Shown here in pieces: positions 30,639-50,788 of a DNA stretch of 64,000 nucleotides. How positions within the stretch are numbered: position 1 is the first letter of the stretch; the number at the start of each line of letters is the position of its first letter. The notes below the pieces were generated by a model. The model worked only from the letters and a program-made list of their open reading frames with translations. It made no database searches and was not told the DNA's origin. This DNA comes from a virus (lineage: Duplodnaviria > Caudoviricetes): IMG/VR virus record IMGVR_UViG_3300035676_000001. One strand, given 5' to 3'. Position numbers and translations under genes: made by a program.

Positions 30639-30711
30639 TAGCGGTGGTGGGATTCGAACCCACCCTTGAACGATTTTAAGTCGTTTGCCTCTTCCGCTGG
30701 GCTACACCGCC
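30639..30711 (-). tRNA. trnL: tRNA-Leu(TAA)
   Basis: GGCGGTG acceptor, AACGA-CTTAAAA-TCGTT anticodon arm, GTGGG-TTCGAAT-CCCAC T-arm; 5-nt variable loop. Confidence 0.9.
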
Positions 30712-30725
30712 AAGTGTATGAGACC

Positions 30726-30754
30726 ATTATAACTCATAGAGTTGTAGTGGTCAA
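30726..30754 (-). promoter_or_regulatory. sigma70 promoter directly upstream of tRNA-Leu
   Basis: TTGACC-17-TATAAT. Confidence 0.75.
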
Positions 30755-30755
30755 G

Positions 30756-30828
30756 TGCCCGTTGTCGGTTACGATCCGACCTTCTATCTGTTATGAGCAG
30801 ATCGCCTTCACCAGAGGGCCAAACGGGC
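30756..30828 (-). tRNA. tRNA with CAT anticodon (Met or Ile2), atypical T-loop
   Basis: GCCCGTT/AACGGGC acceptor, ATCTG-CTCATAA-CAGAT, GTCGG-ATCGTAA-CCGAC. Confidence 0.85.
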
Positions 30829-30982
30829 AAGTGGGAGAGATCCATACAATAGAACAGAAGGTCACCGATAAGTCATAGGTCTGTTCCGCACCGACTCATG
30901 GCTGGGGTTTTTCACTCTCCCTTTTTCAAGTAGGTTTACTGTTGCTTACCCTCTAAAACCCACTACAAAATGGGTAAGCAGA
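30829..30982 (-). ncRNA. Structured RNA between tRNAs (manA-motif candidate)
   Basis: Stems TGCTTACCC/GGGTAAGCA, GGGAGAG/CTCTCCC, CCAT/ATGG, GGAACAGA/TCTGTTCT; family assignment from memory only. Confidence 0.6.
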
Positions 30983-31054
30983 TAGGAACACTGGGAGTTG
31001 AACCCAGACTAACCCGTTATAAGCAGGCCGCTCTAACCATTAAGCTATGCTCCC
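30983..31054 (-). tRNA. trnI: tRNA-Ile(TAT)
   Basis: GGGAGCA acceptor, GCCTG-CTTATAA-CGGGT, CTGGG-TTCAACT-CCCAG. Confidence 0.9.
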
Positions 31055-47819: not shown

Positions 47820-48486
47820 AGAGCTCCAGTTTATCTCTAACAAACTTTCTAATGTATTCGGAGAGGAGTTTGATGTACTTCCCTTTGTTGTATTCTTCAT
47901 AGACGACGCATTCTCCATTTTCACAAGCCATTAAAATTACAAGTTTTTTCACAGGAATATCTGTGAGTTCATAGAACATACAAGCGTATGCTGCTGCCTG
48001 AACAAAATAGTGTTCAATCCACTCTCGTGGTTTTGGTTTTTTAGAAGTTTTGAAATCAATTATCGCTAATTCGCCGTTGTATTCAGCAATACAATCAACG
48101 GTTCCCGCAATACCTAATTGCTTACTATATAGGGAACCTTCAAGGGCGTAAATATTATTTATACGATTAAGTTCTGGTTTCGCAATCTTAAACAGAAAAT
48201 CCGATAGAGGTTGAACTTTGGGGAGTTCTTGATTTTTAAGATGATGTTCAGTCATAAGGTGCATATCAGTTCCACGACTGGTTGCCGCTTTTGTGATACG
48301 CTCTGCTTCTTCATCACCAACTTTCTTGCGCCATTTAACAAAGATTTCCTTATTAAAATGACTGGTCACCGATGTAATGGAGACCAGTCGGAGAAGTTCT
48401 TCTTCATCTGGAACTTTATAATATCGAACACCATCTATAGTCTCCCGTTCAAGTTCAGGGAGAGTCACATCAATATGATTGAACAT
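47806..48486 (-). CDS. PD-(D/E)XK exonuclease
   Basis: RGT.MH, AGTVDC, IIDFKTS, YFVQAAAY. Confidence 0.9.
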   Translation of the reverse strand: MFNHIDVTLPELERETIDGVRYYKVPDEEELLRLVSITSVTSHFNKEIFVKWRKKVGDEEAERITKAATSRGTDMHLMTEHHLKNQELPKVQPLSDFLFKIAKPELNRINNIYALEGSLYSKQLGIAGTVDCIAEYNGELAIIDFKTSKKPKPREWIEHYFVQAAAYACMFYELTDIPVKKLVILMACENGECVVYEEYNKGKYIKLLSEYIRKFVRDKLELYGTK

Positions 48487-50141: not shown

Positions 50142-50305
50142 TTCTTTCCGAATCCTTTTGAGGTTTTTGCTTCAATTTGTGCGAGTTCTTCTTTCAGGGA
50201 ACGCAGTTGTGCTTTCATCTCTCTGATTTTTTCATCAGTATAAAGATTTTCTTGCTTCACCAACCGTTCAAGAAGTTTAATCAGTTTTCTTGCTCTATTA
50301 GTCAT
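50138..50305 (-). CDS. 55-aa coiled-coil protein
   Basis: Manual translation MTNRARKLIKLLERLVKQE...SKGFGKK. Confidence 0.65.
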   Translation of the reverse strand: MTNRARKLIKLLERLVKQENLYTDEKIREMKAQLRSLKEELAQIEAKTSKGFGKK

Positions 50306-50471
50306 CTAGGTCACTGTCTTCAAATATTTCGTCGTAATCCAAAATTGGTTGTTTTCTGACTTCTGGTTCCGTGTAGGAATAGGCAGATACATCAGAATAA
50401 ACTTCTGCTTTGAGAGAATCCACCAACAATTCTAGATTACGGATGATGAGTTTTAGTTTGTCTCTGTCCAT
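50298..50471 (-). CDS. 57-aa conserved protein
   Basis: Manual translation MDRDKLKLIIRNLELLVDSLKAEVYSD. Confidence 0.7.
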   Translation of the reverse strand: MDRDKLKLIIRNLELLVDSLKAEVYSDVSAYSYTEPEVRKQPILDYDEIFEDSDLDD

Positions 50472-50502
50472 CTGTTATAGTTCTCTTCCGATATTTTACC
50501 AC

Positions 50503-50529
50503 AAAAAAAGGAGGGTATCAACCCTCCTT
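50503..50529 (-). terminator. Rho-independent terminator
   Basis: GGAGGG-TTGATA-CCCTCC then T7. Confidence 0.8.
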
Positions 50530-50533
50530 AATC

Positions 50534-50635
50534 TTAGGCAACTTGTGGTTGCTTCGCCATATTAATTTGAGCAATTTTGAGAAGTTTCTCTTTTCTTGCC
50601 TTTTCTTTCAAATATTGAACGAAGTATGTTTTCAT
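50534..50635 (-). CDS. 33-aa basic peptide under riboswitch control
   Basis: MKTYFVQYLKEKARKEKLLKIAQINMAKQPQVA; AAGGAG RBS at 50643-50648. Confidence 0.7.
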   Translation of the reverse strand: MKTYFVQYLKEKARKEKLLKIAQINMAKQPQVA

Positions 50636-50662
50636 AGGTCTGCTCCTTTACTTGGGTAAAGT

Positions 50663-50707
50663 GCGTTCCTTCCCGTGATGGTACTTCCGTCGCATAGCGA
50701 TGAACGT
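50663..50707 (-). promoter_or_regulatory. Glutamine riboswitch (glnA / class I motif)
   Basis: CGTTCA-[TCGC TAT GCGA]-CGGAAGTA-[CC ATCAC GG]-GAAGGAACGC matches the glnA three-way-junction pattern. Confidence 0.85.
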
Positions 50708-50788
50708 GAATTTATTTATTATAACATATTTTAAAAAAACCTTCGCGTGAGAAAATTTTGCCGGAAAAATTTCCCCCGATATTTGAAA

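What the first reader, a model, noticed from the sequence alone, without database searches (positions are those of the whole stretch)
50503..50725. Self-contained unit: glutamine riboswitch controlling a 33-aa basic peptide
Seen: extended -10 TGTTATAAT with an overlapping ATAAATA (~50710-50725), a glnA-type aptamer (50663-50707), a small hairpin TTTAC-CCAA-GTAAA abutting the AAGGAG RBS, a Lys/Arg-rich ORF and a terminator. Known: in Synechocystis a class I glutamine riboswitch turns on gifB, which encodes the basic glutamine synthetase inactivator IF17; glnA motifs occur in cyanophages. Inference: the phage senses host nitrogen status and makes a micro-protein that may act on GS or on infection timing. 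The peptide shows no similarity to IF7/IF17 that I can see.
Basis: partly seen in the sequence, partly recalled or inferred. Interest (0 to 1): 0.72.

Follow-up and report, generated by a model that had tools for sequence, protein, structure and literature searches.

The report
Cyanophage glutamine riboswitch gating 33-residue peptide
A freshwater cyanobacterial virus carries a complete mini-gene (promoter, glutamine-sensing RNA switch, 33-residue basic helical peptide, terminator); it is the stripped-down form of a two-peptide nitrogen-sensing cassette common in related viruses, and what the peptide acts on is still unknown.

Summary
Window 50660-50708 (-) is a full-length glutamine-I aptamer (RF01739, 44.2 bits against a gathering score of 35). 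An extended -10 promoter ends about 9 nt before it. A 6-bp hairpin that overlaps the Shine-Dalgarno sequence follows it, then a 33-codon ORF and a strong terminator.

The ORF is a real gene. At least 119 viral contigs carry it, always at 33 codons, with dN/dS about 0.12. A profile search finds 45 clusters of relatives.

In 112 of 119 contigs the gene overlaps (ATGA) the end of a riboswitch-controlled DUF4278 (YRG) gene. This window, and a diverged second case (L383), have lost that first cistron, so the aptamer sits directly on the peptide gene. Natural fusions of the peptide module with YRG/DUF4278 modules occur in both orders.

The peptide folds as one helix and shows no detectable homology to IF7/IF17. 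A role on glutamine synthetase remains an untested analogy.

This scan had already noted the two-peptide cassette on other DNA. What is new here is the minimal form and the peptide family. I rate it a new variant of a known kind, of moderate interest.

The parts
50718..50726 (-). Extended -10 promoter element TGTTATAAT. The expected transcript start is around 50712-50710, 2-4 nt before the aptamer model.
   Evidence: Read. The motif is enriched in the window, 15 against 4.2 expected. No -35 hexamer was found and the scan does not list the site. No NtcA-like box lies within 200 nt upstream.
50660..50708 (-). Glutamine-I (glnA RNA, RF01739) aptamer. P1 is 50706-50702 paired with 50668-50664. The first hairpin is 50700-50690. 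The junction CGGAAGUA is at 50689-50682. A short second hairpin is at 50681-50673. The long-range-pair C is at 50663.
   Evidence: 44.2 bits, gathering score 35, E 2.3e-6. The diverged relative L383 keeps the fold through changes on both sides of pairs.
50646..50661 (-). Expression-platform hairpin CUUUAC-CCAA-GUAAAG. Its 3' arm covers the first three bases of the Shine-Dalgarno sequence.
   Evidence: -4.4 kcal/mol, SD bases 0.03-0.24 unpaired in the ensemble. The same tail-to-SD pairing occurs in 153 of 183 distinct leaders and is longer than in the swapped-arm control.
50643..50648 (-). Shine-Dalgarno sequence AAGGAG, 7 nt before the ATG.
50534..50635 (-). Gene for the 33-aa basic helical micro-protein (here called p33), stop codon included.
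   Evidence: One search lists the ORF. Searches give the family: at least 119 contigs, dN/dS 0.12. Searches give the alignment and the 45 clusters. predicts a helix over residues 2-28, pLDDT 89.
50503..50529 (-). Intrinsic terminator: a 9-bp G+C-rich stem, loop UGAU and a T run.
   Evidence: -23.9 kcal/mol, z -6.15.

Best explanation
This is a self-contained transcription unit of a freshwater T4-like cyanophage. A host-type (sigma-70, extended -10) promoter starts an mRNA whose first roughly 50 nt are a type 1 glutamine aptamer.

Without glutamine, the bases just after P1 pair with the Shine-Dalgarno region and hold translation down. When glutamine is high, the aptamer captures the base after P1 in its long-range pair, the ribosome site opens, and the 33-aa peptide is made. 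That makes it a translational ON switch, as shown for gifB. The transcript then ends at a strong terminator.

The peptide (p33) is a single basic alpha-helix. It belongs to a conserved family of phage micro-proteins that normally form the translationally coupled second gene behind a riboswitch-controlled DUF4278 (YRG) gene. In this phage the DUF4278 cistron, and the extra aptamer parts of relatives, are gone, so p33 alone is the output.

The module is fused to YRG/DUF4278 modules in some sequences and shares their glutamine control. So p33 most likely acts in the same pathway, as a small protein that binds and modulates a host nitrogen-assimilation component when the cell is nitrogen-replete. 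Glutamine synthetase is the leading but unproven candidate.

Shown: the aptamer, the unit's anatomy, that the gene is real and conserved, and its link to DUF4278. Inferred: the direction of switching, the early timing, and the target.
For: Aptamer:
- It scores above the Rfam threshold and covers the full model.
- The ligand-contacting positions named in PMC6698751 (C1:G59, G2:C58, G22) and the C after P1 are all present when read against the crystallised sequence in PMC5393176.

Platform:
- Tail-to-SD pairing is found in 153 of 183 leaders.
- The arm types covary: CACCU/GGGUG, CGCCUC/GAGGCG, CUCUUUA/UAAGGAG, CUUUAC/GUAAAG.
- Mean helix length is 5.69 bp, against 4.59 +/- 0.07 in the swapped-arm control.
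- The window's own SD and AUG are mostly paired in the ensemble.
- The ON-switch model for gifB comes from PMC6212724.

The gene is real:
- At least 119 contigs carry it, with 74 distinct DNA versions, all of 33 codons.
- Codon-position entropies are 0.32, 0.25 and 0.88, and median dN/dS is 0.12.
- A profile search finds 45 clusters at 50% identity.

Link to DUF4278:
- The ATGA overlap behind a two-YRG ORF occurs in 112 of 119 contigs.
- Those leaders are RF01739 aptamers.
- Fusions occur in both orders: L031 and P0030 have YRG then the peptide module, and P0019 has the peptide module then DUF4278, which scores 38.8 bits.

Reduced form at the same locus:
- The flanking genes are 45% and 75% identical to those flanking the S-SRM01 cassette.
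- The leader is of the same type as the DUF4278 leaders of L235 and L168.
- The window has no two-YRG ORF.

The direct form is maintained:
- L383 has its own TTGACA promoter, a 48.4-bit aptamer with double changes in P1 and the hairpin, a peptide 70% identical to the window's, and a terminator.
- Contigs from three further studies hold the window's form. The only difference inside the ORF is synonymous.
- DUF4278 was found in 0 of 5 records with direct units and in 5 of 5 records with the two-gene cassette.

Fold: one helix over residues 2-28, pLDDT 89.
Against: - No experiment or RNA data show transcription, translation or glutamine response. The one metatranscriptome contig lies outside the unit.
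- The window's anti-SD hairpin starts 2 nt after the long-range-pair C and covers only half of the SD.
- In L383 the hairpin is one pair shorter, so the coupling between ligand binding and SD release is weaker than in marine leaders. In those the C itself is in the helix.
- No sequence link to IF7 was found: hhalign E 0.23, no better than reversed controls. There is no Pfam, PHROG or NCBIfam hit.
- The family is Lys-rich, whereas IF7 function depends on arginines (from memory of Saelices et al. 2011, not checked here).
- Similar riboswitch-peptide units occur in phages of hosts reported to lack glutamine synthetase (Melnitz, PMC9004378). A target other than glutamine synthetase is therefore quite possible.
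- The whole phage genome is not held, so a DUF4278 gene elsewhere in it cannot be excluded.
Confidence: 0.6

Rival explanations
1. The unit works as described, but p33 has nothing to do with nitrogen assimilation. Glutamine serves only as a read-out of host metabolic state, and the basic helix binds nucleic acid, the ribosome or a phage or host regulator, for example to time infection.
For: - The peptide has net charge +6 and low amphipathicity, and no homology to IF7.
- Unrelated-looking basic peptides follow the same aptamer in phages of SAR11, OM43 and SAR86-type hosts. One of these is Melnitz, whose host is reported to lack glnA (PMC9004378).
Against: - The family is tightly linked to DUF4278, by coupling and by fusions. 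DUF4278 is the domain of the GS-inactivating factor IF17 (PMC6212724).
- In cyanobacteria the same aptamer precedes DUF4278 and IF7-like peptides.
Confidence: 0.22
2. The aptamer regulates in another way: as an OFF switch, or through mRNA stability or transcription rather than translation initiation.
For: - The hairpin covers only half the SD and does not include the long-range-pair C. RNA folding cannot show how the ligand changes it.
- The ORF carries a second CGUUC (50621-50617) that could compete for the P1 3' strand.
Against: - Both glutamine riboswitch classes tested so far act as ON switches (PMC6212724, PMC6698751).
- There is no terminator-like structure between the aptamer and the ATG.
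- Tail-to-SD pairing covaries across leaders.
Confidence: 0.1
3. The unit is a decaying remnant left by deletion of the DUF4278 gene, and p33 here is no longer functional.
For: It is the rare form: only the window (and the identical L233) among 119 pattern-selected contigs.
Against: - Promoter, aptamer, SD, ORF and terminator are all intact.
- A diverged second lineage (L383) keeps the same direct layout with compensatory aptamer changes.
- Other branches of the peptide family also sit directly behind aptamers: L003, L006, L025, L073, L101.
- The variants in independent metagenomes differ in the ORF only by a synonymous change.
Confidence: 0.05

Closest known systems
gifB (IF17) leader of Synechocystis sp. 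PCC 6803: type 1 glutamine riboswitch, translational ON switch (Klaehn et al. 2018, PMC6212724)
   Same: - It has the same aptamer class (RF01739).
- The aptamer sits directly before the SD and start codon.
- The tail after P1 can pair with the ribosome binding site.
- The output is a small basic protein.
   Different: - The output here has no DUF4278 domain and no detectable IF7-like region.
- The unit is viral.
- No NtcA box was found upstream.
- It ends at its own terminator after 33 codons.
Two-peptide cassette of freshwater cyanomyoviruses, e.g. Synechococcus phage S-SRM01 (MW015081: QPX47982-QPX47984, annotated hypothetical)
   Same: - It lies at the same locus, between homologous flanking genes upstream of thyX and phoH.
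- It encodes the same 33-aa peptide, 79% identical.
- It has the same terminator.
   Different: - S-SRM01 and more than 100 contigs have a more complex aptamer region, a 56-aa ORF between aptamer parts, and a DUF4278-like gene that overlaps p33 by ATGA.
- The window has one canonical aptamer fused directly to p33.
Type 2 glutamine riboswitch (Downstream-peptide, RF01704) with short DUF4278 ORFs in marine picocyanobacteria, e.g. Prochlorococcus yfr6 (PMC2864571, PMC6212724)
   Same: A glutamine aptamer directly precedes a very short conserved ORF (33 codons in yfr6).
   Different: The aptamer class differs, and the peptide there is of DUF4278/YRG type whereas p33 is not.
Glutamine riboswitch of Methylophilales phage Melnitz (PMC9004378)
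   Same: A phage-borne RF01739 aptamer (52.8 bits) lies a few genes upstream of thyX. It is followed 26 nt later by a 32-codon basic ORF.
   Different: - The paper reads the switch as controlling the tmRNA upstream, and the ORF is not annotated.
- Its peptide (W-C type) has no significant profile similarity to p33.
IF7 (gifA) type peptides of cyanobacteria
   Same: They are small, basic, predicted-helical peptides. In several cyanobacteria they sit directly behind a type 1 aptamer.
   Different: The core ARLLMS..NRQQSMLQRAA has no counterpart in p33: hhalign E 0.23, equal to reversed controls.

Membership tests
Glutamine-I riboswitch (glnA RNA, RF01739) | The covariance-model score is at or above the curated gathering score, over the full model. 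| tested here: met
   44.2 bits against 35, model positions 1-53 of 53, E 2.3e-6.
Glutamine-I riboswitch (glnA RNA, RF01739) | A three-way junction (P1 plus two hairpins) is kept through compensatory changes in relatives. | tested here: met
   In L383 the fifth P1 pair changes from C-G to G-C, three of the four pairs of the first hairpin change on both sides, and the score is 48.4 bits.
Glutamine-I riboswitch (glnA RNA, RF01739) | The conserved junction (CGGAAGUA ... GAAG), the ligand-contacting bases (C1:G59, G2:C58, G22) and the C after P1 for the long-range pair are present. | tested here: met
   All are present in the window sequence, read against PMC6698751 and the crystallised sequence in PMC5393176.
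Glutamine-I riboswitch (glnA RNA, RF01739) | It selectively binds L-glutamine and changes conformation. | not testable with these tools
   This needs in-line probing or ITC.
Glutamine-I riboswitch (glnA RNA, RF01739) | It sits in a 5' UTR with an expression platform that occludes the ribosome binding site. | tested here: met
   The hairpin 50661-50646 overlaps the SD at -4.4 kcal/mol, and the SD is 0.03-0.24 unpaired. The same pairing occurs in 153 of 183 leaders and beats the swapped-arm control. The direction of switching was not tested.
GS-inactivating factors IF7/IF17 | Sequence homology to the IF7 core, which is also the C-terminal part of IF17. | tested here: not met
   hhalign of p33, and of the wider family, against 9 IF7-like peptides gives E 0.23-0.51, no better than reversed controls.
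GS-inactivating factors IF7/IF17 | The DUF4278 domain, which forms the N-terminal part of IF17. | tested here: not met
   p33 has no Pfam hit at E up to 10, and the window has no two-YRG ORF.
GS-inactivating factors IF7/IF17 | It binds and inactivates type I glutamine synthetase. | not testable with these tools
   This needs an activity assay or pull-down with host GS.
Cyanophage second-peptide (p33) family of the DUF4278 cassette | A peptide of 26-35 aa with a hydrophobic start, the basic core K-x4-K-E and the tail A-Q-L-x-M-A, matching the family profile. | tested here: met
   Alignment A2 has K15, E16 and A22 nearly invariant. The profile finds 45 clusters, with intermediates such as P0017 and P0011.
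Cyanophage second-peptide (p33) family of the DUF4278 cassette | Purifying selection acts on the reading frame. | tested here: met
   Median dN/dS is 0.12, third-position entropy is 0.88 against 0.32 and 0.25, and the other frames are closed.
Cyanophage second-peptide (p33) family of the DUF4278 cassette | The start overlaps (ATGA) the stop of an upstream DUF4278/YRG gene. | tested here: not met
   This is true in 112 of 119 contigs. In the window the aptamer leader runs straight into p33, which makes it a variant.
Cyanophage second-peptide (p33) family of the DUF4278 cassette | It lies at the same genomic locus, a few small genes upstream of thyX and phoH. | tested here: met
   The flanking proteins are 45% and 75% identical to those of S-SRM01. 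The same neighbours appear in L384-L387.

The most novel reading that the evidence does not exclude
The p33 family would be a new class of phage-encoded, glutamine-gated inhibitors of the host's nitrogen assimilation. It would be a functional counterpart of IF7 without sequence homology that, together with a phage or host DUF4278 protein, forms a split version of IF17 and shuts down glutamine synthetase in nitrogen-replete infected cells. The present phage would show that the helix alone suffices.
Probability: 0.2. Interest if true: 0.75.

Novelty: new variant of a known kind. Interest (0 to 1): 0.5.

Why it matters
Glutamine riboswitches are well understood as RNA. Most of their outputs, however, are tiny proteins of unknown function (DUF4278 proteins in picocyanobacteria and several peptide classes in marine phages).

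This unit is the simplest natural case: one canonical aptamer, one 33-residue peptide, its own promoter and its own terminator. The peptide can be made chemically, and the whole unit fits on a 230-bp fragment. It is therefore a clean system for asking what phages do with a glutamine signal.

The coupling and fusion data tie the peptide to DUF4278. That gives a concrete handle on the long-open question of what IF17-like proteins do where full-length inactivating factors are missing.

It also shows that automatic annotation misses such genes. There is no Pfam or PHROG family, and the Melnitz counterpart is unannotated.

Tried and rejected
- Complex prediction of p33 (alignment A2) with two copies of Synechocystis GS (GLN1B_SYNY3) returned no verdict: score 0.04 against a mark of 0.32. 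It counts neither for nor against binding.
- Expression: the only RNA run (X20) holds one 210-nt contig at 50796-51005, outside the unit. That gives no evidence either way.
- Family searches on p33 gave nothing: Pfam, PHROGs and NCBIfam and the ESM Atlas.
- Profile comparison of p33, and of the wider family, gave no signal above reversed controls. The targets were IF7-like peptides, the marine W-C peptides, the GTSGY, DPRLQ and NPFYP classes, and DUF4278. The best was P 0.009 against the NPFYP class, not significant after multiple tests.
- No whole genome is held for the window. A DUF4278 gene elsewhere in this phage could not be excluded. The scan's notes on this genome mention none.
- NtcA box: a window-wide pattern search was uninformative. 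A targeted check found no site matching at least 5 of 6 positions within 200 nt upstream.
- Ren et al. 2015 (PMC4690532) is not held. Structural numbering was taken from PMC6698751 and PMC5393176 instead.
- I considered that the CGUUC inside the ORF (codons 5-7) forms a designed alternative to P1. It is present in only 48 of 74 family members and is explained in part by codon choice, so it remains open.

Full report
**1. Observation**

- cmscan places a full-length glutamine-I aptamer (RF01739) at 50660-50708. It scores 44.2 bits against a gathering score of 35, with E 2.3e-6 for the whole window. It is the only riboswitch hit in 64 kb.
- P1 (CGUUC/GAACG), the junction CGGAAGUA...GAAG and the C after P1 are all present. 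According to PMC6698751, with numbering from the crystallised RNA in PMC5393176, these include the bases that contact glutamine (C1:G59, G2:C58, G22) and the one that closes P1 by a long-range pair.
- TGTTATAAT (50726-50718) is an extended -10 element. The motif is clearly over-represented in this phage, 15 against 4.2 expected. A start about 7 nt downstream would put the 5' end 2-4 nt before the aptamer.
- There is no -35 hexamer. No NtcA-like box lies within 200 nt.
- The hairpin CUUUAC-CCAA-GUAAAG (-4.4 kcal/mol) overlaps the first three bases of AAGGAG. In the folding ensemble the SD and the AUG are mostly paired.
- The ORF has 33 codons.
- The terminator is strong: -23.9 kcal/mol, z -6.15.

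**2. Context**

The window is from a freshwater T4-like cyanomyovirus. phoH, thyX and a glutaredoxin gene lie nearby. DNA identical or close to this stretch is held by wetland, pond and freshwater metagenomes of about ten studies.

The nearest isolate is Synechococcus phage S-SRM01. The genes on both sides of the unit are homologous to those of S-SRM01, at 45% and 75% amino-acid identity.

**3. The peptide is a real, conserved gene**

- These give 47 distinct peptides and 74 distinct DNA versions, all of 33 codons.
- Variation is concentrated at third codon positions (entropies 0.32, 0.25, 0.88). Median dN/dS is 0.12, and the other frames are closed.
- Loci chosen through the aptamer rather than the peptide show further branches of the same family, 26-33 aa long. 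They share a hydrophobic start, a basic core K-x4-K-E and a tail A-Q-L-x-M-A.
- A profile search of 1.8 billion representatives finds 45 clusters at E up to 0.001, nearly all 27-60 aa, with intermediates that join the branches.
- AlphaFold2 with this alignment predicts one helix over residues 2-28 at pLDDT 89.
- The window's peptide has net charge +6 and pI 10.1.
- No Pfam, PHROG or NCBIfam family matches.

**4. Its usual setting**

- In 112 of 119 contigs the gene overlaps, by ATGA, the stop of a 44-55 aa ORF with two YRG motifs. S-SRM01's copy hits DUF4278 weakly and phrog_5049 strongly.
- That ORF is preceded by RF01739-type aptamers scoring 33-54 bits, some with long inserts or a changed junction.
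- Earlier notes of this scan describe the same two-peptide cassette, and genes nested in the aptamer, in other cyanophages. I reached the cassette independently.
- The peptide module is also found fused to YRG/DUF4278 modules in both orders. L031 and P0030 have YRG first. P0019 has the peptide module first, twice, and scores 38.8 bits on DUF4278.
- Coupling plus fusion is good evidence that the two products work together.

**5. What is special here**

- The window has no two-YRG ORF.
- Its leader, up to GGAGCAG, is of the same type as the DUF4278 leaders of close relatives such as L235 and L168. It then runs directly into the peptide gene.
- So this locus is the same cassette with the first cistron and the extra aptamer parts removed.
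- This is not an accident of one assembly. Contigs from three further studies carry the direct form, and the only ORF difference is synonymous.
- A diverged relative, L383, has the same layout. It has its own TTGACA-17-TATGGT promoter ending just before the aptamer, an aptamer of 48.4 bits with changes on both sides of P1 and hairpin pairs, a peptide 70% identical to the window's, the same terminator and the same next gene.
- Other branches of the family also sit directly behind aptamers: L003, L006, L025, L073 and L101.
- A DUF4278 search found nothing in five records with direct units, one of them 143 kb. It found exactly one match in each of five records with the two-gene cassette, two of them complete genomes.
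- The peptide therefore seems able to act without a phage DUF4278 partner. A host DUF4278 protein could still be its partner.

**6. Mechanism**

- For the gifB leader, Klaehn et al. showed an ON switch. They proposed that the C after P1 and the bases after it pair with the ribosome site until glutamine binding pulls them away (PMC6212724).
- I tested that idea on 183 distinct leaders from phages and bacteria. In 153 of them, the bases starting 0-2 nt after P1 form a helix of at least 4 bp with the SD region.
- The arms covary: CACCU/GGGUG, CGCCUC/GAGGCG, CUCUUUA/UAAGGAG, CUUUAC/GUAAAG and others.
- The mean helix length is 5.69 bp, against 4.59 +/- 0.07 when the arms are swapped between leaders. 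Relatedness of the sequences inflates this contrast somewhat.
- The window has the CUUUAC/GUAAAG version. It begins two bases after the critical C and covers half of the SD. In L383 it is one pair shorter.
- I therefore infer a translational ON switch, but with less certainty than for the marine leaders. RNA folding alone cannot show the ligand effect.

**7. Target**

- In cyanobacterial genomes the same aptamer precedes either DUF4278 ORFs or stand-alone IF7-like peptides with the core ARLLMS..NRQQSMLQRAA.
- p33 resembles these in size, charge, helicity and control.
- Profile-profile comparison gives no signal (E 0.23-0.51, equal to reversed controls). Homology to IF7/IF17 is therefore not supported.
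- The analogy stands as a hypothesis: a DUF4278 part plus a basic helix, as in IF17.
- Against a GS target in general, quite different basic peptides follow the aptamer in phages of heterotrophs. One is Melnitz, whose host is reported to lack glnA (PMC9004378).

**8. Known or new**

- Phage-borne glutamine riboswitches are in the literature (PMC9004378, PMC9964418, PMC9602691). Short ORFs behind glutamine aptamers have been noted since 2010 (PMC2864571).
- The S-SRM01 homologue is deposited as a hypothetical protein.
- I found no description of the peptide family, of its coupling and fusion with DUF4278, or of the reduced direct form.
- I file it as a new variant of a known kind, with interest 0.5. 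The RNA is ordinary. The output, and the clean minimal architecture, are what make it useful.

Noticed in passing
L002:1573-1671 (Methylophilales phage Melnitz-1, MZ577095): An unannotated 32-codon basic ORF starts 26 nt after the Melnitz glutamine aptamer (52.8 bits), behind a GGGGAG SD enclosed by a CACU/AGUG helix. Close homologues follow aptamers in L040, L120, L074 and L117. The published reading that the switch controls the tmRNA upstream (PMC9004378) may need revision, because the record annotates only an ORF on the opposite strand.
   Followed up: partly
L003-L122 (viral contigs) and L263-L382 (bacterial genomes): Besides DUF4278, at least four other peptide classes sit 20-33 nt behind RF01739 aptamers. 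They are 28-38 aa basic W-C peptides, 63-65 aa peptides with NGxGTSGY, 49-51 aa peptides ending DPRLQ(K/G)I, and 45-53 aa peptides ending NPFYP or PYYL. Some also occur in SAR86, SAR11-like and other marine MAGs and SAGs. In SAR11/SAR116-type genomes, tandem aptamers precede amtB and glnA.
   Followed up: partly
L292, L294, L302, L305, L338, L331, L348, L276, L306, L380: In several cyanobacteria the type 1 aptamer directly precedes stand-alone IF7-like peptides (core ARLLMS..NRQQSMLQRAA, 44-56 aa), not only DUF4278 genes.
   Followed up: partly
window 50493-50521 (-): A promoter-like site TTGATA-17-TAAAAT with an upstream TG lies inside the loop and 3' arm of the terminator. It is placed to drive the next gene (57 aa, 50298-50471).
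   Followed up: no
window 50617-50621 (-): Codons 5-7 of the peptide gene contain CGUUC, identical to the 5' strand of P1. In the minimum-energy fold this stretch pairs with the 3' half of the SD. 48 of 74 family members carry it.
   Followed up: partly
L001:2136-2360 (S-SRM01): A weak aptamer (28.9 bits) at 2136-2187 and a second 3' aptamer half (GACGGAAGGAACGC, about 2340-2356) flank a 56-codon ORF. Earlier notes of this scan describe this gene-inside-aptamer layout in other phages.
   Followed up: partly
window 48011-48047 (+) and L136:483-519: A 37-nt element gives sub-threshold matches to CRISPR-DR21 (31.8 and 35.8 bits, gathering score 48) in the window and in a related contig.
   Followed up: no
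window 50717-50734: One freshwater metagenome (run X5) carries the same aptamer and peptide gene but with several small insertions and substitutions in the promoter region.
   Followed up: no
L383:17-50: The public contig begins with what looks like a sequencing adapter (GTGACTGGAGTTCAGACGTGTGCTCTTCCGATCT). This is an assembly artefact next to the real phage sequence.
   Followed up: no
window 30639-31054 (-): A cluster of three tRNA genes (63.9, 58.9 and 43.2 bits).
   Followed up: no
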